DNA from: an uncultured Gammaproteobacteria bacterium
Lineage (GTDB): Bacteria; Patescibacteriota; Patescibacteriia; UBA9934; GWF2-40-263
Length of the DNA stretch: 41,993 bases
Assembly (NCBI GenBank): GCA_964355525.1
Contig: CAYHDY010000004.1
Span: 1-41,993, forward strand
Direction: 5' to 3'
Of the stretch, positions 27,314-38,494 are shown in pieces. The notes under the pieces are model-generated. The model had not been told where the DNA came from. It saw only the letters and a program-made list of their open reading frames with translations, and searched no databases. The position numbers and the translations under genes are program-made. Each line of letters opens with the position of its first letter. Within the stretch, counting starts at the first letter, position 1.

Positions 27314-27351
27314 AAAAAACCACCCTTCGCCTGAAAAAGGCTATGGGTGGT
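27314..27351 (-). terminator. intrinsic terminator after the 921-aa gene
   Basis: The minus strand reads ACCACCC-19 nt-GGGTGGT followed by TTTTTT. Confidence 0.55.
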
Positions 27352-30116
27352 CAGAGAGCCGCGGGAGTTTCTGCTTCCACGGTTTTGTTTTCCTCGACAG
27401 GCTGAGTTCCTGGCACAAATTCGAACCGATTACAGTGATGCACGGAGCAAATCGTTATGCGCTTACGGACGTTTGCATCAAGCACCCATTCAGGCAACCC
27501 GCGATAGCCCGGAAAACTGGATGTGAATCCGACATCCGCGTCTTCCTCATGCAGAAGCCAAATGTACCCTTCTCCGTATTGTGTGACACTTTTGTGAATC
27601 ACGAGCCCGTGTTTATCAACCACGTTCGTTGGATTTGCGGTGCTGTGGTAGTAATAGACATCATTTCCAAACGTCATCGGCTGCACGAAATCTCCGATCG
27701 AGATCATGCGACCGGAACAATCCTTCTGAAACTCTTTTCCCAGATTCGGCACGGTGAGCCGACGTGCAAGAAGATCTTTCGGAACCGGAATCATGACACC
27801 GTCTTTCCCGATAAGAACCGCCTCACCGACGGGAATGACATGGAATGCACGTGTGACACCCGTATAAAATGACAAGTACGTTCCGTAAATCACTTGGTGC
27901 GCTTGCCCCGTTGAGTTACCGACAGGCAATGCCTTGTCGAACCGAATTTCCCAGTAATCCCGGACGCTACCCGATCGTATGATCGTTCCGGGAGTGCCAA
28001 GGGACTCGGTATTGTCGAAACCACGATTGACTTTCGGATCTCCGCCAAGATACATCACACGATCACCGATTTTGAACGGTCTGTTCACTGCGAGATCTTT
28101 TGCTGCACCGCTTGCAACGACTGTAATCTGCTCGTTACCTTCCGTGACCGACAGTTTCTTTTCAACGAAAGCCTGAAGCGGAATCATGAGTCCGTTTGTG
28201 AAGACAAGATCATCCAAGGATCCTTTGGCTTTACCCGGAACAAGACACTGAAGCTCGAGGACGTCACCCTTTTTCAGAGGCGAGAGATCGTCCGTTTGGA
28301 CAACCATCTTCGTCCCCTGTTTCAGTCCAGTGTCCGAATCTACTGCGACGAGTTGGAACCAGTCGGGCGTTTCGGGAAACACCCACACGCTTTCTTTGAT
28401 GATCGGAATGATGATCCCGTTTTCGAACAGGATTCCCACATCGTTCGGATGTTTCATCAGCTGCAGCGGTGCAAATCCGAGAATCTGTTGCACGGTTCCG
28501 TACGGAAGCAATGCTTGAAAACGCGTCACGAGAATGTGATCAAATTCCTCAAGATCTAAACGCTTATCATGAAGAGCTACCTTCGTATCCGTTCGTTCGA
28601 AGTGAATCGGTTTCCAAGCGAATCGAAACTCACCAGCTCCGAACAAAACCGTTGTCTCTTCGGGTGTCTCTTTGAAACGCAGAAGATATCCGTCCGGGTT
28701 TTCCGGATCCTTGAAAATCTCCCCTACGGTCAAGATCGGTGGATTATAAACGCCCGTTTCCCGAATCGCATTACCGACCGAGAGTCTGATGTCGGCAAAC
28801 GTGAAGACGCCGTCTTTCAATTCCGGCACCCACCAAGCAATGCACGAGAGAAGCGTTCCCCCGTTCGATGTCAGATAGATCCATTCGTCGCGCACAGCCA
28901 TCGGATCCGAATGCGCGAATTGCGCAAGCACGTCTCCGTCATCGTCCACACGCAGTTTCGTGATCCGTTCCGGTTTTTTTATGCAAGTGAGCGATCGAGG
29001 ATCCGAACTGACAAGCGACATGCCCGCACGGATCTCGAATCCGTCCGCAAGCGTGACCAGAGAGCACGTTTGCCATTTCTCTTTCACACGGACAAGCTCG
29101 AAATAATCGAGAAATCTTACATGGAACAGAACCGGTTCCGCGATACCTTCAAGACGCATGTGTAGACCGGTGCTTCGTGCGGGTTGGCAAAATCCTGCCA
29201 CTTCATACATTTCGCCTTTCTTGATCTCTTGAGGCATATCCTCACGAGCCAGCAATACATCTCCGACACGCACCACTTTTCCATTGAGGTGGAACGATCC
29301 GGATGGAAGGTCTTTCCATTTTGATGCGTCAGGCAATCGCGTTGCGCTTACGAGAGCGGCATGCATGCGATCAAACGTCGTATCGCCGACAGCTTCATCT
29401 CCTGCGAGGGAAAGTGCCTGCGATTTCACGAGACGTGCAAGATGCTCGGGTCGAGCCGACCAGCTGGCCGTCAGAACCCACAGCGAATTGCGCAGACTCG
29501 CGCACTCCCAATCCCAAACGGTTTTGAACTGAGAAACTTTCGGATGCGCATCACGCACAGAATTGACGAGCGTCATGAACGATTGATCGAAGAACGAATC
29601 CACGACCGCGTTCACGGCGAACGCCGGATTCCATCCGTACGTCCTGAGCGAACCAGTTTCGATGTCGAACGTGTCGTCTTGCATGAGACCGCACTTGTAC
29701 AGATACTCGTTTTCACTCAGCACCGCACCTTTGCGAAATGCGAGTGTCACGCGTTTGACCTCGCCGTTATCGACACGAACAATGAACAGGACGAACGGAA
29801 ACGCGAGTTGGAATTCGGTGCGCGTTGCATCCGATTCCGTCAATCCGAATTTCTTCAAACCATCACGTTCGATGACCGATGCCCATTCACTCGGGTCCGG
29901 ATGCCATCGCGCCGATCGGACACACGGAAGTTGCTCGATCACGTACACGGTTGTCGCGCCGATCGAGTACACCATCCGCGTCCCTTTCGGGAGATACTCG
30001 GATGTGTCCGCTTGTCCAAAGACACGAAGCGAAACGGGAGCCGACATCGTGCCGTCTTCACGGATCAACGATGCGGTTCCATTCTCATCGATCTGAATCT
30101 TTAGAACGTTCGTCAT
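27351..30116 (-). CDS. giant hypothetical protein, paralog 2 (921 aa)
   Basis: Full-length colinear similarity to the 1055-aa neighbour. Shared motifs are VYVIEQxPCVR, KFGL, LAFP[FY]V[LV]FIV, WxW..SLRNxLxVLxAxW, KKGExYxV, R[VI]DxDGD, [LV]KDGxFxF, ISIGDxV and GYxxLPEWV. AAGGAGG lies 5 nt upstream of the ATG. Confidence 0.8.
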   Translation of the reverse strand: MTNVLKIQIDENGTASLIREDGTMSAPVSLRVFGQADTSEYLPKGTRMVYSIGATTVYVIEQLPCVRSARWHPDPSEWASVIERDGLKKFGLTESDATRTEFQLAFPFVLFIVRVDNGEVKRVTLAFRKGAVLSENEYLYKCGLMQDDTFDIETGSLRTYGWNPAFAVNAVVDSFFDQSFMTLVNSVRDAHPKVSQFKTVWDWECASLRNSLWVLTASWSARPEHLARLVKSQALSLAGDEAVGDTTFDRMHAALVSATRLPDASKWKDLPSGSFHLNGKVVRVGDVLLAREDMPQEIKKGEMYEVAGFCQPARSTGLHMRLEGIAEPVLFHVRFLDYFELVRVKEKWQTCSLVTLADGFEIRAGMSLVSSDPRSLTCIKKPERITKLRVDDDGDVLAQFAHSDPMAVRDEWIYLTSNGGTLLSCIAWWVPELKDGVFTFADIRLSVGNAIRETGVYNPPILTVGEIFKDPENPDGYLLRFKETPEETTVLFGAGEFRFAWKPIHFERTDTKVALHDKRLDLEEFDHILVTRFQALLPYGTVQQILGFAPLQLMKHPNDVGILFENGIIIPIIKESVWVFPETPDWFQLVAVDSDTGLKQGTKMVVQTDDLSPLKKGDVLELQCLVPGKAKGSLDDLVFTNGLMIPLQAFVEKKLSVTEGNEQITVVASGAAKDLAVNRPFKIGDRVMYLGGDPKVNRGFDNTESLGTPGTIIRSGSVRDYWEIRFDKALPVGNSTGQAHQVIYGTYLSFYTGVTRAFHVIPVGEAVLIGKDGVMIPVPKDLLARRLTVPNLGKEFQKDCSGRMISIGDFVQPMTFGNDVYYYHSTANPTNVVDKHGLVIHKSVTQYGEGYIWLLHEEDADVGFTSSFPGYRGLPEWVLDANVRKRITICSVHHCNRFEFVPGTQPVEENKTVEAETPAAL

Positions 30117-30172
30117 GATTGCCTCCTTATCTTCGATTGGAATGGTCGTTCCTGCACGGTTGCAGGCCGAGT

Positions 30173-30201
30173 TTTTTACCTGATTTTCATAAAATGGTCA
30201 A
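30173..30201 (-). promoter_or_regulatory. promoter TTGACC-N17-TAAAAA for the 921-aa gene
   Basis: The minus strand reads TTGACCattttatgaaaatcaggTAAAAA. It is part of a 58-nt block (30160-30217) identical to 33576-33633. Confidence 0.55.
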
Positions 30202-30208
30202 GGTCATT

Positions 30209-37421: not shown

Positions 37422-37429
37422 GTGAATCA

Positions 37430-37535
37430 CGTCCCCACCCATACCCTCCCCTGTGGTCAGGGGCGGGGTAGCGCATTGAATCGGTTCACATGCGATCCCT
37501 CCCCCTGACAACAGGGGGAGTCGGAGGGGGACGCG
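37430..37535 (+). repeat. double-hairpin element (DHE) copy D
   Basis: CGTCCCCACCCATA-CCCTCCCCTG-TGGT-CAGGGGCGGG-GTAGCGCATTGAATCGGTTCACATGCGA-TCCCTCCCCCTG-ACAA-CAGGGGGAG-TCGGAGGGGGACGCG. Confidence 0.9.
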
Positions 37536-37567
37536 AATTAAAAAACACATCCGCAGGGGGATGTGTC
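37536..37567 (-). terminator. intrinsic terminator after the 300-aa gene
   Basis: The minus strand reads GACACATCC-CCCTGC-GGATGTGT followed by TTTTTTAATT. Confidence 0.7.
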
Positions 37568-37594
37568 GAGAGATTTCCTTGCTTCTTCGCCGAC

Positions 37595-38494
37595 CTAGCG
37601 CCGGGCGGGGACGCGCTGCGCGGGCGGCTTGACGAGCACGATGACCTTGCCGGTCGACTTGTAGCGCTCGAGTTCCATGCGCGCCGCGTTGAAGTAGGGA
37701 CTGTTCGTCGCCTCCTTGTCGCTCACGGCTTGCAGGAGCAGGTGCAGATCCGCGCTCTGGTCTTCCGGGACGTCGCCGAGCACTTCGTTGACGTGGACGT
37801 AGGACAGCTCCCGGACTTCCGAGGAAACGCCGGCCCAGTTGGTCTGGCACTTGGGGCAGTACTGATCCGGGCCGACCAGGTGGACGCCGTGGATCGGGCA
37901 GATCTCGTACGCCGCGTCGGGCAATTCCGTCGCCTTGTAGAGCCGCTGCAGGACGCCCTTGACGCTGACCGTGTCGCCGATTTCGATGCCGATGCGGAGC
38001 TGGCCCAGGTTCGCCAGGCTCATTTCCTGATCGATCACGAGCGCACGCTTGTCCTTGTAGACGAGGAACGCGTTGCTTTCGGCGCGCTTGTTGAGCTCGA
38101 AGACGATGTCGGGCCGCTCGGTGGGCTTGAACTTCGCGAGCAACGTGGCATCCGACAACCGATCCGGCGACACGAACGCGTCCAGGAACTCCGCCGTCAT
38201 CGGGCCCAGCCCGCCCGCTTGGGGAGCTTCGGCCACGACAGGCTTCGTTTCCGGGACCTCGGGCGCACGCCAGACCTTGGCGATCGCACGTGCGACTGCC
38301 TTCGGAACGCCGCACTGCGAGATGTCCTCGAACGACATCTCCGCCGCCGAGGCTTCGACGCCGCCGCCCTCCTTGAGCAACGCCGCGACGACCTTGTCGA
38401 CCTCGATCTTGCTTTCATCGCCGACGCTTTCGTTGTACCCGCTGAGCAACGCCAGCACCAACTTCTGTTTGAACAATTCCGGCTTCTTTGCCAT
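37595..38494 (-). CDS. hypothetical protein with a Cys/His cluster (first gene of island 2)
   Basis: Track ORF 37595-38671 trimmed to MAKKPELFKQK..., which is preceded by GAAGGAAG. The protein is 300 aa with a C-terminal ICPIHGVHLVGPDQYCPKC (C-x2-H...C-x2-C). This is the most GC-rich gene here: a hand count of the single line 37621-37680 gives 38 of 60 G+C. Confidence 0.6.
   Translation of the reverse strand: MAKKPELFKQKLVLALLSGYNESVGDESKIEVDKVVAALLKEGGGVEASAAEMSFEDISQCGVPKAVARAIAKVWRAPEVPETKPVVAEAPQAGGLGPMTAEFLDAFVSPDRLSDATLLAKFKPTERPDIVFELNKRAESNAFLVYKDKRALVIDQEMSLANLGQLRIGIEIGDTVSVKGVLQRLYKATELPDAAYEICPIHGVHLVGPDQYCPKCQTNWAGVSSEVRELSYVHVNEVLGDVPEDQSADLHLLLQAVSDKEATNSPYFNAARMELERYKSTGKVIVLVKPPAQRVPARR

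What the first reader, a model, noticed from the sequence alone, without database searches (positions are those of the whole stretch)
27351..38494. GC-rich island: Ubl, E1-like and JAMM cassette wired to a RuvB-like AAA+ ATPase and two giant paralogous proteins (candidate undescribed ubiquitin-like system)
Seven minus-strand genes form one compact array. In transcription order they are:
- a 300-aa Cys/His protein;
- a RuvB-like AAA+ ATPase;
- a JAMM protease;
- a small ThiF/E1-like protein;
- a HeH-Ubl fusion;
- a 1055-aa protein;
- a 921-aa protein.

The array is cut into transcription units by four near-identical modules, each with the order terminator, repeat, promoter. The middle four genes are translationally coupled: a 14-nt overlap, an RBS overlapping the upstream stop, and a 2-nt gap.

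Ubl, E1 and JAB together are the hallmark of prokaryotic ubiquitin-like conjugation cassettes. Known examples are the PRTRC cassettes of plasmids and ICEs, Bil/Bub-type defence operons, and Cap2/Cap3 of CBASS. I know of none that partners with a RuvB-family motor and a tandem pair of ~1000-aa paralogs. No canonical E2 (UBC) gene is visible here.

The island is compositionally foreign. The ORF track shows 3-5 overlapping shadow ORFs per locus. A hand count gives 38 of 60 G+C at 37621-37680, against 18 of 60 at 22441-22500. I recognised no integrase, transposase or phage structural gene.
Basis: partly seen in the sequence, partly recalled or inferred. Interest (0 to 1): 0.92.

Follow-up and report, generated by a model that had tools for sequence, protein, structure and literature searches.

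The report
RuvB-linked ubiquitin-like tagging cassette
This is a conserved seven-gene bacterial cassette for attaching a small ubiquitin-like protein to targets, unusual because the E2 sits at the front of two ~1000-residue proteins (one active, one dead) and because it always travels with its own RuvB-type DNA motor.

Summary

The same set, in the same order, occurs in more than 20 independent metagenomic contigs. Most carry Patescibacteria/CPR labels, for example Ca. Uhrbacteria.

**Main correction.** An E2 is present. The first ~280 residues of both giant proteins belong to a diverged branch of Pfam Prok-E2_D, the PRTRC_B type.
- The upstream giant keeps a near-invariant Asn...Cys motif.
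- The downstream giant lacks that motif in all 11 cassettes checked, so it is a pseudo-E2.
- The rest of the modelled 1055-aa giant folds as a long array of SH3/KOW/Tudor-like barrels. By full-length paralogy the 921-aa giant likely does too.

**Other components.**
- The RuvB-like ATPase belongs to a separate clade: 17 clusters, 49-100% identical. Canonical RuvBs are at most 40% identical.
- This clade and the 299-aa zinc-ribbon protein were found only in this cassette. The two share a ~78-aa N-domain.
- The Ubl carries a Rho_N/HeH domain.

**Relatives.** Simpler E2-JAMM-E1-Ubl versions occur in other CPR lineages and in huge phages.

**Repeat module.** It is a dispersed intergenic element: three copies lie in the array and a fourth upstream of rpmA.

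**Verdict.** This is a new, apparently undescribed variant of the known prokaryotic E1-E2-Ubl-JAB kind, not a new kind. Its biological role is unproven; antiphage defence or DNA-transaction control are the candidates.

The parts
37595..38494 (-). CH300: a 299-aa protein. It has an N-terminal ~78-aa helical domain shared with the RuvB-like protein, a middle region, an invariant CPxHxxH...CxxC zinc-ribbon-like site and a basic tail. It forms its own transcription unit.
   Evidence: Five orthologues align at 44-45% identity with invariant C199, P200, H202, H205, C213 and C216. The shared N-domain is shown in alignment A6. There is no Pfam, NCBIfam or PDB sequence hit. Of the 15 metagenome loci anchored on this protein, every one with enough flank carries the cassette.
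36153..37337 (-). RuvB-clade AAA+ ATPase (394 aa) with a ~85-aa N-terminal extension. It is the first gene of the translationally coupled four-gene unit.
   Evidence: Pfam hits: RuvB_N 1.2e-35, AAA, AAA_lid_4 and RuvB_C 8.3e-14. The RuvB equivalog NF000868 scores 238 bits, below its cutoff of 282. Full-length phmmer alignment to T. thermophilus RuvB, E 2.3e-46. It forms a distinct clade of 17 clusters, followed by a sharp drop to canonical RuvBs at 40% identity or less.
34958..36166 (-). JAMM/MPN+ metallopeptidase (402 aa) with an N-terminal alpha+beta region and a variable C-terminal extension. It overlaps the RuvB-like gene by 14 nt.
   Evidence: The motif E(AVVLLF)...HSHcdmapfHSggD fits HxHx7SxxD. 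NCBIfam PRTRC_A E 8.8e-4. Pfam Prok-JAB E 0.052 for this protein and 6.7e-4 for the L008 orthologue. Orthologues are present in all cassettes.
34235..34948 (-). Small E1-like adenylyltransferase (237 aa).
   Evidence: Pfam ThiF 2.5e-12, 46.9 bits against a cutoff of 28.1. The best NCBIfam match is PRTRC_ThiF at 46.3 bits, below its cutoff of 144.75. It has a GAGGGGS nucleotide loop, a CVDNNKSR motif and a conserved Cys in M(S/G)CEE. It is 60% identical to its orthologues.
33807..34232 (-). Ubl (141 aa): a Rho_N/HeH-type N-domain, an acidic linker, and a ~67-aa beta-grasp-like domain ending ...EFVKKSGDKQSS.
   Evidence: N-domain: the profile hits the Rho N-terminus (3l0o, E 1.2e-7), and 5 of 16 members hit Pfam Rho_N. 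C-domain: G64 and K66 are invariant. Sub-threshold hits to ThiS (3.9e-4), TGS and Ubiquitin_3 in orthologues. In-register hhalign to E. coli ThiS (my recalled sequence), pairwise E 0.006. Tandem and triple Ubl fusions occur in L012 and L006.
30361..33528 (-). Giant A (1055 aa). The N-terminal ~280 aa (about 32683-33528) form an E2-like domain with Asn166 and Cys175. Residues ~290-1055 form an array of small SH3/KOW/Tudor-like beta-barrels. It forms its own transcription unit.
   Evidence: The N-domain profile finds P0005 (E 4.9e-29), which passes Pfam Prok-E2_D (33 bits against a cutoff of 25). 14 of 22 family members hit PF14460. N166 and C175 are at least 90% conserved in 88 giants and present in every giant A. 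The AF2 model has pLDDT 83.3. Foldseek matches SPT5 KOW arrays (E 7e-8), HERC2, Agenet/Tudor and NusG.
27351..30116 (-). Giant B (921 aa): a full-length paralogue of giant A whose E2-like domain (about 29334-30116) lacks both the Asn and the Cys, making it a pseudo-E2. It forms its own transcription unit.
   Evidence: BLASTP against giant A gives E 1e-33. The motif is absent in giant B of all 11 cassettes examined.
37422..37544 (-). Repeat module copy 1, between CH300 and the RuvB-like gene. It has two GC-rich hairpins flanked by inverted TTCGCGTCCCC/GGGGACGCGAA. It is preceded by a terminator (37544-37567) and followed by TTGACG-17-TAAAAA.
33573..33741 (-). Repeat module copy 2, between the Ubl gene and giant A. 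It is preceded by a terminator (33743-33765) and carries a promoter-like TTGACC-17-TAAAAA.
30157..30320 (-). Repeat module copy 3, between giant A and giant B. Its inner part is inverted relative to copies 1 and 2. It is preceded by a terminator (30320-30343), and its promoter-like segment is 98% identical to that of copy 2.
27314..27350 (-). Terminator-like hairpin (CCACCC...GGGTGG followed by a T-run) ending the array after giant B. No repeat module follows it.
   Evidence: Read directly from the sequence.

Best explanation
**What it is.** The array encodes a complete ubiquitin-like protein-conjugation pathway of the Prok-E2_D/PRTRC-related lineage. Two accessory proteins tie it to DNA.

**Proposed steps**
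1. The Ubl has a Rho_N/HeH nucleic-acid-binding head, an acidic linker and a beta-grasp domain. Where needed, the JAMM peptidase trims its C-terminus (inferred).
2. The small ThiF-type E1 adenylates the Ubl and probably carries it on the conserved Cys of M(S/G)CEE. The motifs are shown; the chemistry is inferred.
3. The Ubl passes to Cys175 of the E2-like domain at the N-terminus of giant A. The conserved Asn/Cys motif is shown; the transfer is inferred.
4. Giant A's ~750-residue array of SH3/KOW/Tudor-like barrels selects the substrate directly. No separate E3 is needed, as in the E2/E3 hybrids UBE2O and BIRC6 and as proposed for Bil E2s (inferred).
5. Giant B has the same architecture but lacks the Asn and Cys. 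It acts as a non-catalytic partner, either a UEV/Mms2-like cofactor or an alternative substrate adaptor (inferred).
6. The dedicated RuvB-clade hexameric motor and the zinc-ribbon protein CH300 share an N-terminal domain and are found only with this cassette. Together with the HeH head of the Ubl, they place the reaction on DNA or DNA-bound complexes (inferred).

**Likely biological role.** I think conflict with phages is most likely (about 50%). The reasons are:
- the giants are the fastest-evolving parts;
- the characterised bacterial systems with E1/E2-type enzymes read here (Bil, type II CBASS Cap2/Cap3) are antiviral, and an antiviral role is suggested for Bub;
- sister cassettes sit in huge phages.
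For: **Gene identities:**

**E2 assignment**
- The N-domain profile links to P0005, which hits Pfam Prok-E2_D above its cutoff and PRTRC_B weakly.
- 14 of 22 family members hit PF14460.
- Asn166 and Cys175 are at least 90% conserved. They are present in every giant A and in every single-E2 cassette, and absent from every giant B.

**Barrel array:** the AF2 model has pLDDT 83.3 and matches SPT5 KOW arrays, HERC2, Tudor and Agenet domains. Relatives show faint Pfam SH3_15 (Mind-bomb) hits.

**Conserved co-occurrence**
- Seven genes in the same order are seen in the window, L001, L005, L016, L017, L021, L022, L024, L027 and L033. Partial sets reach the contig ends in L003, L014, L018, L020, L025 and L028-L031.
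- In L019 the four-gene unit is inverted as a block. This supports the transcription-unit structure.

**Dedicated RuvB paralogue:** there is a clade gap of 377-848 bits against 196 bits or less, and the gene is translationally coupled to JAMM (11-nt overlap in L001).

**Shared N-domain:**

**Rate gradient, window against L005:** CTP synthase 71%, E1 60%, RuvB 53%, CH300 43%, Ubl 39%, giants 27%. In the closer pairs scored the giants are again among the more diverged parts.

**Phage sister cassettes:**

**Known families compared:** PMC1779556, PMC10557695, PMC11601596.
Against: - Foldseek of the confident N-domain model (pLDDT 86) found no significant PDB match. UbcH7 appeared only at rank 29 with E 1.3. 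The UBC fold therefore rests on family membership and the motif, not on structure.
- The window giants do not hit PF14460 directly.
- The beta-grasp fold of the Ubl was not modelled, and all family hits for it are sub-threshold.
- No component matches any PADLOC defence model beyond generic AAA+ noise.
- The flanks are housekeeping genes, not defence islands.
- The cassette is syntenic between two related genomes. This fits a resident cellular function as well as it fits defence.
- Nothing here shows conjugation, DNA binding, or any physical link between the RuvB-like protein or CH300 and the Ubl machinery.
Confidence: 0.65

Rival explanations
1. The biochemistry is the same, but the role is endogenous. 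The cassette controls a host DNA transaction such as stalled-fork or recombination-intermediate processing. An E2 plus pseudo-E2 pair marks a DNA-bound protein, and the RuvB-like motor remodels the DNA. This would be a functional analogue of Ubc13-Mms2-Rad5/HLTF.
For: - The cassette has an active E2 plus an inactive E2 pair in all 11 cassettes checked.
- It has a RuvB-clade branch-migration-type motor with the RuvB C-terminal winged helix retained.
- The Ubl carries a HeH/Rho_N head.
- The flanks are housekeeping genes, and the position is syntenic in two Uhrbacteria-like genomes.
- There are no PADLOC hits.
- Distant relatives sit among replication and recombination genes on a Butyrivibrio plasmid: Rad52, helicase, HolA and SSB.
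- L001 is flanked by PolA and HolA.
Against: - The giants diverge far faster than the enzymes: 27% against 53-60% identity. This is atypical for a housekeeping substrate-recognition module.
- The distribution is sporadic. Other CPR lineages and phages have the core cassette without RuvB or CH300.
- The neighbourhoods differ between genomes.
Confidence: 0.2
2. The cassette is a resident or decaying piece of a mobile element or huge prophage. The CPR copy is phage-derived cargo, not a host system.
For: - Sister cassettes (giant E2, JAMM, E1, HeH-Ubl) lie in phage-like contigs that carry RNAP, topoisomerase and SbcCD. They also lie in IMG/VR contigs, one of them 207 kb.
- BFVD fold matches for the N-domain are all phage proteins.
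- Related E2-JAB-E1 sets occur in cultured Bacillus jumbo phages.
- The cassette GC is 53.4% against 46.6% for the rest of the window.
Against: - No integrase, transposase or structural phage gene was recognised in the window ORFs scanned or among the called genes flanking the other loci. Several window ORFs have no hit at all.
- The seven-gene form with RuvB and CH300 was found only on contigs with cellular housekeeping flanks.
- The cassette is retained at the same chromosomal neighbourhood in two diverged genomes.
Confidence: 0.08
3. The adjacency is incidental. The RuvB-like gene is simply the organism's Holliday-junction helicase, and the E1/Ubl pair is a ThiS/MoaD-type sulfur-carrier system with no protein conjugation.
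For: - The RuvB-family domains are strong.
- The E1 is a plain ThiF-family protein, and the Ubl's best Pfam hint is ThiS.
Against: - The RuvB-like clade is separated from canonical RuvBs, including CPR ones.
- It scores below the RuvB equivalog cutoff.
- No RuvA lies next to it.
- It is translationally coupled to JAMM.
- It co-occurs with the whole set in more than 20 contigs.
- An E2-like domain with a conserved Cys and a JAMM peptidase are present.
- No rhodanese or thiamine/Moco gene is present.
- The Ubl carries a HeH domain and occurs as tandem fusions.
Confidence: 0.04

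Closest known systems
PRTRC (ParB-related, ThiF-related cassette; TIGR03734-03742), which I take to correspond to operon type 6d of Iyer, Burroughs and Aravind 2006 (PMC1779556). That equivalence is my own recollection and was not tested.
   Same: - The best-scoring NCBIfam models for the E1 and the JAMM are PRTRC_ThiF and PRTRC_A. A stand-alone relative of the giant N-domain hits PRTRC_B and Pfam Prok-E2_D.
- It has the same four activities: a separate small E1, a JAB, an E2 without the classical His, and a Ubl. It also pairs these with a DNA-binding accessory (ParB there).
   Different: - All scores are far below the PRTRC cutoffs: 46 against 145, 19 against 102, and 25 against 131.
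- There is no ParB and no PRTRC C, D, E or F proteins.
- The E2 is fused to a ~750-aa barrel array and is duplicated into an active and a dead copy.
- A RuvB paralogue and CH300 take the place of ParB.
- The cassette is chromosomal in CPR bacteria, not on plasmids or ICEs.
- The conserved His after the Cys, described for 6d E2s, is not evident here.
BilABCD (types I and II; type II corresponds to 6C/CEHH operons), PMC10557695
   Same: - The gene set is Ubl, E2, JAB and E1, with no E3.
- The E2 is proposed to recognise targets directly.
- Ubls have a conserved Gly followed by a short tail, varied N-terminal domains and tandem beta-grasp versions.
   Different: - There is no PADLOC Bil hit.
- The E1 here is a 237-aa single-domain ThiF type, not a multidomain IAD/AAD/CYS E1.
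- The E2 belongs to a different family and is giant.
- Bil has no AAA+ motor or pseudo-E2.
Bub operons (6E/DUF6527), PMC11601596
   Same: Both are diverged bacterial Ubl conjugation operons with an E1, an E2, a peptidase and structurally varied Ubls. The Bub paper suggests an antiphage role.
   Different: - Bub uses Tyr/Ser oxyesters, fused Ubl-E2 or E2-E1 proteins and the DUF6527 serine protease.
- Here the E1 and E2 keep conserved cysteines, the proteins are separate, and the peptidase is a JAMM.
Eukaryotic E2/E3 hybrids (UBE2O, BIRC6) and the Ubc13-Mms2(UEV)-Rad5/HLTF module. This comparison rests on my own knowledge, not on a test here.
   Same: - The architectural logic is shared: a UBC-type domain embedded in a very large substrate-binding protein.
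- An active E2 is paired with a Cys-less E2-like partner.
- The system is coupled to a dsDNA translocase and a zinc-binding protein.
- The barrel array matches HERC2, Mind-bomb-type SH3 and Tudor folds used for substrate recognition.
   Different: This is analogy only. No sequence relationship was shown, and the UBC fold was not confirmed by Foldseek. The motor is a RuvB-type AAA+ protein, not a SNF2 protein.
Canonical RuvB (RuvAB branch-migration motor)
   Same: It has the full RuvB_N, AAA lid and RuvB_C domain set, with Walker A GPRGLGKTT and Walker B DEIH motifs, and aligns over the full length with T. thermophilus RuvB (phmmer E 2.3e-46).
   Different: - It forms a distinct clade, at most 40% identical to any canonical RuvB, and scores below the equivalog cutoff.
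- It has an extra ~85-aa N-domain shared with CH300.
- No RuvA is adjacent.
- It is always followed by the JAMM gene.

Membership tests
PRTRC system (NCBIfam TIGR03734-03742) | ThiF component scores above the TIGR03736 cutoff (144.75 bits) | tested here: not met
   46.3 bits, E 3.1e-12. It is the best NCBIfam hit but far below the cutoff.
PRTRC system (NCBIfam TIGR03734-03742) | PRTRC_A (JAB) scores above its cutoff (101.8 bits) | tested here: not met
   18.9 bits, E 8.8e-4.
PRTRC system (NCBIfam TIGR03734-03742) | PRTRC_B (E2) scores above its cutoff (131.45 bits) | tested here: not met
   The window giant N-domain gives no hit. The stand-alone relative P0005 scores 25 bits.
PRTRC system (NCBIfam TIGR03734-03742) | A ParB-family protein and PRTRC proteins C, D, E and F are present | tested here: not met
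   None of the seven proteins gives such a hit in Pfam or NCBIfam at E up to 0.1. The Ubl and CH300 were rescanned at E up to 10 with no hit.
Pfam Prok-E2_D (PF14460) | HMM hit at or above the gathering score (25 bits) | tested here: inconclusive
   Neither window giant hits directly, even at E up to 10. Their N-domain profile retrieves P0005 at E 4.9e-29, and P0005 scores 33 bits. 14 of 22 aligned family members hit PF14460 at E up to 0.01.
E2/UBC superfamily | A conserved catalytic Cys preceded by an Asn (the HPN-like position) | tested here: met
   Giant A has N166 and C175, at least 90% conserved in 88 giants and present in every giant A. Giant B lacks both, so it is a pseudo-E2.
E2/UBC superfamily | UBC fold: a beta-meander, an active-site loop and C-terminal helices | tested here: inconclusive
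   The AF2 N-domain model has pLDDT 86. Its order of secondary-structure elements is compatible with the fold. Foldseek against the PDB gave no significant hit; UbcH7 was at rank 29 with E 1.3 and TMt 0.40.
ThiF/MoeB/E1 adenylyltransferases (PF00899) | HMM hit above the cutoff, plus the nucleotide-binding Gly loop and the DxxxR motif | tested here: met
   46.9 bits against a cutoff of 28.1. GAGGGGS and CVDNNKSR were read in the sequence. A Cys in M(S/G)CEE is conserved in orthologues.
JAMM/MPN+ metallopeptidases | E...HxHx7SxxD metal-binding motif | tested here: met
   The motif HSHCDMAPFHSGGD with an upstream Glu is conserved in all orthologues read. Pfam Prok-JAB is only sub-threshold: 13.9 bits for the window protein and 20 bits for an orthologue, against a cutoff of 25.
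RuvB (equivalog NF000868 / TIGR00635) | Score above the equivalog cutoff (282 / 299 bits), meaning orthology with the Holliday-junction helicase | tested here: not met
   238 and 203 bits. The domain-level RuvB_N and RuvB_C hits are met. The protein belongs to a separate clade in the database search.
Ubiquitin-like beta-grasp modifiers (ThiS/MoaD/Ub) | Beta-grasp fold with an exposed C-terminal Gly | tested here: inconclusive
   - Only sub-threshold hits were found: ThiS 21.3 bits against a cutoff of 22.5 in a phage orthologue, plus TGS and Ubiquitin_3.
- hhalign to ThiS is in register, with pairwise E 0.006 but only 6% probability.
- The PDB profile search was not significant.
- Gly64 is invariant and followed by x-Lys.
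HeH/SAP/Rho_N helix-extension-helix domains | Profile match to a member of the family | tested here: met
   The Ubl N-domain profile matches the Rho N-terminus (3l0o) at E 1.2e-7. Pfam Rho_N is hit in 5 of 16 orthologues (best E 2.4e-5), and SAP in 1. The window copy alone does not hit.
Known antiphage defence systems (PADLOC-DB v2: Bil, CBASS Cap2/Cap3 and others) | A match of any component to a defence-system model | tested here: not met
   The RuvB-like protein gives only weak generic AAA+ matches (best E 6.4e-5). The other six proteins give nothing.

The most novel reading that the evidence does not exclude
This would be a previously undescribed, DNA-coupled ubiquitin-like pathway of CPR bacteria.
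- A Ubl with a DNA-binding head is conjugated by a giant E2/pseudo-E2 pair to proteins sitting on DNA.
- A dedicated RuvB-clade motor and its zinc-ribbon partner find the marked DNA structure, create it or act on it.
- The result is either a new DNA-sensing antiphage mechanism or a bacterial counterpart of ubiquitin-controlled fork remodelling (Ubc13-Mms2-Rad5/HLTF).
Probability: 0.3. Interest if true: 0.85.

Novelty: new variant of a known kind. Interest (0 to 1): 0.7.

Why it matters
Bacterial E1-E2-Ubl-JAB operons have only recently been shown to conjugate proteins (Bil, Cap2/3, Bub). Each newly studied family has revealed different chemistry or a different target logic. This family adds four features I did not find described in the library searched:
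- E2 domains fused to ~750-residue arrays of SH3/KOW/Tudor-like barrels, a built-in substrate-recognition arm resembling the eukaryotic E2/E3 hybrids;
- an obligate active/inactive E2 pair;
- a Ubl with a HeH/Rho_N head;
- a private RuvB paralogue and zinc-ribbon partner.

The cassette takes up about 11 kb. That would be a large investment if these genomes are as small as is typical for CPR bacteria. Sister cassettes in huge phages suggest it matters in host-virus biology.

It also gives a concrete, testable case of a ubiquitin-like system physically tied to a DNA motor outside eukaryotes. Related E2-JAB-E1 modules in cultured Bacillus jumbo phages offer an experimental entry point.

Tried and rejected
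- **Direct profile scans.** Pfam, NCBIfam, PHROGs and PADLOC gave nothing for the giants and CH300, and nothing for the JAMM except one weak NCBIfam PRTRC_A hit. The E2 link came only through a family profile.
- **PDB sequence searches.** The E1, JAMM, giant N-domain profile, CH300 profile and shared N-domain profile gave no significant hit. The Ubl C-domain profile was not significant either.
- **Foldseek.**
  - The full giant model was dominated by the barrel array.
  - The N-domain alone gave no significant PDB match. I therefore do not claim a structurally verified UBC fold.
  - BFVD gave only uncharacterised phage proteins.
- **HhH idea.** I suspected the domain shared by CH300 and the RuvB-like protein is helix-hairpin-helix-like, because of its two G-hydrophobic-P motifs. 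No search supported this, so it stays unclassified.
- **Conserved Cys in 'EQPPCVR'.** I first took this for the E2 catalytic Cys. I rejected it because orthologues have A, Q or R there.
- **Repeat modules as cassette-specific operators.** Rejected for two reasons. A fourth copy precedes rpmA. Orthologous cassettes lack the module: L005 shares only a short T-run plus TTGACA segment, and L017 has an unrelated palindrome.
- **GenBank phages and plasmids.** tblastn of a phage giant against GenBank phages found nothing. Only distant E1 relatives exist in plasmids and cultured phages.
- **Literature.** Searches for PRTRC, Prok-E2, RuvB with JAB/E1/Ubl, and CPR or huge-phage Ubl systems found no description of this cassette. 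The library is incomplete, so this is not proof of absence.
- **Not testable here.** I could not check whether genomes with the cassette also carry a canonical ruvAB.

Full report
**1. Setting**

The window is a bacterial chromosome segment. It carries MurG, FtsW and MraY at 7-10.4 kb, then CTP synthase, ribosomal protein L9 and PGI. An O-antigen-ligase/glycosyltransferase cluster follows at 18-26.5 kb, and thymidine kinase lies at 26601-27287. There is one tRNA-Lys and no rRNA.

The closest genome segment found is from a Candidatus Uhrbacteria MAG (L005). Its CTP synthase is 71% identical and its L9 58% identical. It carries the same cassette between the same neighbours. In the window, the segment from the cassette to PGI is inverted, and a glycosyltransferase cluster plus thymidine kinase are inserted.

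**2. The observation**

- For the first gene, the 299-aa form starting at 38494 is the one supported by orthologue alignment.
- The junctions are as described:
  - The RuvB-like gene and JAMM overlap by 14 nt, with GGGAGG upstream.
  - An AGGAGG overlaps the JAMM stop and precedes a GTG start for E1.
  - E1 and the Ubl gene are separated by 2 nt, with AAGGAGG upstream.
- Terminator-like hairpins on the minus strand follow CH300, the Ubl gene, giant A and giant B.
- The cassette has 53.4% GC against 46.6% for the rest of the window. The excess is uneven: CH300 has 64.6% (GC3 89%) and the Ubl gene 59.6%, while the giants have 50-52%. Another GC-rich patch lies at 11-14 kb.
- The repeat module is real. 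It consists of two CCCCTG...CAGGGG hairpins flanked by inverted TTCGCGTCCCC/GGGGACGCGAA.
  - Three copies lie in the array.
  - In copies 2 and 3 a 61-nt stretch carrying TTGACC-17-TAAAAA is 98% identical.
  - A fourth copy lies at 11470-11620, between a terminator and the promoter-like site of rpmA/L27.
  - Orthologous cassettes lack the module.
  - It is therefore a dispersed, lineage-specific intergenic element.
- The four-unit transcription layout is CH300 | RuvB-JAMM-E1-Ubl | giant A | giant B. Independent support comes from L019, where the four-gene unit is inverted as a block.

**3. The enzymes**

- *E1.* It passes Pfam ThiF (46.9 bits against a cutoff of 28.1). Its best NCBIfam match is PRTRC_ThiF, far below that model's cutoff. 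It has the Gly loop, the DNxxxR motif and a conserved Cys in M(S/G)CEE.
- *Peptidase.* It has a complete JAMM motif (HSHx7SxxD with an upstream Glu). It gives weak PRTRC_A and Prok-JAB hits.
- *ATPase.* It has all the RuvB domains and aligns over the full length with T. thermophilus RuvB (phmmer E 2.3e-46). It scores below the RuvB equivalog cutoffs.
  - In the 5.8-billion-protein search, 17 clusters are 49-100% identical over the full length, 387-439 aa long and carry the N-extension.
  - Scores then fall abruptly from at least 377 bits to at most 196 bits for canonical RuvBs. These are at most 40% identical, cover 75-85% of the query, and include CPR RuvBs.
  - NCBI names members of this clade 'AAA family ATPase'.
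  - Every member whose context I retrieved sits in the cassette.

**4. The missing E2**

The two giants are full-length paralogues (E 1e-33), and neither hits any library directly. A profile of their first ~280 residues changed the picture.
- It retrieved a 219-aa stand-alone protein (P0005, E 4.9e-29). P0005 passes Pfam Prok-E2_D (33 bits against a cutoff of 25) and weakly hits PRTRC_B.
- An exhaustive HMMER search of 1.84 billion representatives gave 2018 hits at E up to 1e-3 and 215 at E up to 1e-30. Most of the top hits are 800-1050 aa long.
- 14 of 22 aligned family members hit PF14460.
- Asn166 and Cys175 (motif N-x6-8-[ILMV]-C) are at least 90% conserved.
- Across cassettes, the first giant always has the motif and the second never does, in 11 of 11 cases. 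Single-E2 cassettes keep it.

*Caveat.* A confident AF2 model of the N-domain (pLDDT 86) has a compatible order of secondary-structure elements, but Foldseek found no significant PDB match. BFVD returned only uncharacterised phage proteins. The E2 call is therefore family-based, not structure-verified.

**5. The rest of the giants**

AF2 of the 1055-aa protein, using an 88-sequence alignment, gave pLDDT 83.3. Beyond residue ~290 the model is a string of small beta-barrels. Foldseek matches include:
- SPT5 KOW arrays (E 7e-8);
- HERC2;
- Agenet and Tudor tandems;
- NusG KOW.

Relatives show faint Mind-bomb SH3_15 hits. In eukaryotes such modules recognise substrates or bind nucleic acid. This fits a built-in substrate-recognition arm, but that reading is an inference.

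**6. The Ubl**

- A profile of the N-terminal ~50 residues hits the N-terminal domain of Rho (3l0o, E 1.2e-7). Five of 16 orthologues hit Pfam Rho_N.
- The C-terminal ~67 residues give only sub-threshold beta-grasp hits (ThiS 3.9e-4, TGS, Ubiquitin_3). They align in register with ThiS.
- In related cassettes this domain is a stand-alone ~70-aa protein encoded next to the E1 gene. It also occurs as tandem (L012) and triple (L006) fusions.
- Gly64 and Lys66 are invariant. Most orthologues end one residue after the Lys (...GDKA, ...GxKG). The L012 tandem junction is ...AGRKG|ADET.
- The window protein ends ...SGDKQSS. JAMM trimming is therefore plausible, but the cut site is open.

**7. CH300**

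This protein has no database match. It is well conserved (44-45% identity) with an invariant CPxHxxH...CxxC site. Its first ~78 residues are homologous to the N-extension of the RuvB-like protein.

A metagenome scan anchored on CH300 returned 15 loci. Thirteen had enough flank to show further cassette genes, and all of those continue with the RuvB-like, JAMM, E1, Ubl and giant genes as far as the contig reaches. The other two contigs are too short.

**8. Distribution**

- The seven-gene form occurs in more than 20 contigs, with GC from 43% to 69%.
  - Most carry CPR labels; one MAG is labelled Gammaproteobacteria and one Dehalococcoidia.
  - The flanks are different housekeeping genes in different contigs.
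  - No integrase was seen.
- Four-gene forms (E2 fusion, JAMM, E1, Ubl) occur in Saccharibacteria and Falkowbacteria MAGs.
- A form with giant E2, JAMM, E1 and HeH-Ubl occurs in huge-phage-like contigs, one of them 207 kb.
- More distant E2-JAB-E1 sets occur in cultured Bacillus jumbo phages. They also occur on a Butyrivibrio plasmid next to Rad52, a helicase, HolA and SSB.
- Between the window and L005, identity falls in this order: CTP synthase 71%, E1 60%, RuvB 53%, CH300 43%, Ubl 39%, giants 27%.

**9. Interpretation**

The best-supported reading is a complete Ubl conjugation pathway: JAMM, E1, E2-Cys175 on giant A, then the substrate. Substrate choice is built into the giants. A pseudo-E2 partner is always present. 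The system is tied to DNA through three parts:
- the HeH head of the Ubl;
- a private RuvB-clade motor;
- CH300.

*What is shown:* the gene identities, the motifs, the architecture and the strict co-occurrence.

*What is inferred:* all of the chemistry, the DNA link and the biological role.

I favour a role in conflict with phages. The specificity parts evolve fast, sister cassettes sit in phages, and the characterised Bil and CBASS systems are antiviral, with the same suggested for Bub. However, the housekeeping flanks, the synteny and the absence of PADLOC hits keep an endogenous DNA-transaction role alive.

**10. Comparison and novelty**

The cassette is not a PRTRC member, because every tested defining feature fails. 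It is not Bil, Bub or Cap2/3 either. It belongs to the same known kind: prokaryotic E1-E2-Ubl-JAB operons (Iyer et al. 2006, PMC1779556). Its nearest relatives are in the Prok-E2_D/PRTRC lineage.

The distinctive features are the giant E2 fusions, the active/dead pair, the HeH-Ubl, and the RuvB paralogue with CH300. I found none of these described in the literature available here. I rate it a new variant of a known kind, with interest 0.7.

Noticed in passing
window 11470-11620 (plus terminator ~11625-11670 and rpmA ~11150-11405, minus strand): A fourth copy of the GC-rich palindromic module sits between a terminator and a TTGACA promoter-like site upstream of ribosomal protein L27. The module is a dispersed REP/MITE-like intergenic element of this genome. 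The inner part of the copy at 30157-30320 is flipped relative to the others.
   Followed up: partly
window 4270-5238 (+), with 3165-4232 (+) and 2527-3141 (-): A 5-hmdU DNA kinase helical domain (PF18723, E 7e-110) lies here. This family name points to thymidine hypermodification, which I associate with phages. It sits in a cellular chromosome next to a 355-aa orphan and a Translin-family protein. Thymidine kinase also abuts the Ubl cassette.
   Followed up: no
window 12492-13907 (+): A 471-aa orphan ORF in a second GC-rich patch (GC 57.6%, GC3 73.5%) has no Pfam hit. Overlapping shadow ORFs make it uncertain which frame is real.
   Followed up: no
window 39461-40447 (+): A 328-aa, very acidic orphan ORF lies ~1 kb from the CH300 start (38494) on the opposite strand. 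It has no Pfam hit.
   Followed up: no
window 20394-27287 compared with L005: Relative to the related Ca. Uhrbacteria contig, the window has an inversion of the block from the cassette to PGI. It also has an insertion of a glycosyltransferase/methyltransferase/deacetylase cluster plus thymidine kinase between the O-antigen-ligase gene and the cassette.
   Followed up: partly
L012:14230-15189 (IMG/VR contig of 207 kb) and L006:934-1671: In L012 the Ubl gene is a tandem repeat of (Rho_N/HeH + beta-grasp), with junction ...AGRKG|ADET. In L006 it is a triple beta-grasp protein. These are polyubiquitin-like precursors and imply processing by the JAMM.
   Followed up: partly
L019:4029-15109: The RuvB-JAMM-E1-Ubl unit is inverted as a block relative to CH300 and the two giants. 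This shows that the cassette is built from separable transcription units.
   Followed up: no
L018:3627-6623: In one cassette the protein at the JAMM position is 998 aa long, with faint SH3_15 and DUF7129 hits. This suggests a peptidase fused to a barrel array, or a rearranged giant.
   Followed up: no
L035 (Bacillus phage vB_BauM_KLEB27-3, gp194-gp196) and L034 (Butyrivibrio hungatei plasmid pNP144): The cultured jumbo phage carries three adjacent genes: an E2-motif protein (…NTNSDPWLCWG…), a PRTRC_A-like JAB and a ThiF. The plasmid carries an E2-like protein, a JAMM fusion, Rad52 and a ThiF beside a helicase, Pol III delta and SSB. Both could serve as tractable relatives for experiments.
   Followed up: partly
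L001/L004 (GCA_964428465.1) and protein P0155: Contigs carrying the cassette are labelled 'uncultured Gammaproteobacteria' (GC 67%) and 'Dehalococcoidia' in the public records. Either the cassette reaches beyond the CPR or these bins are mislabelled.
   Followed up: no
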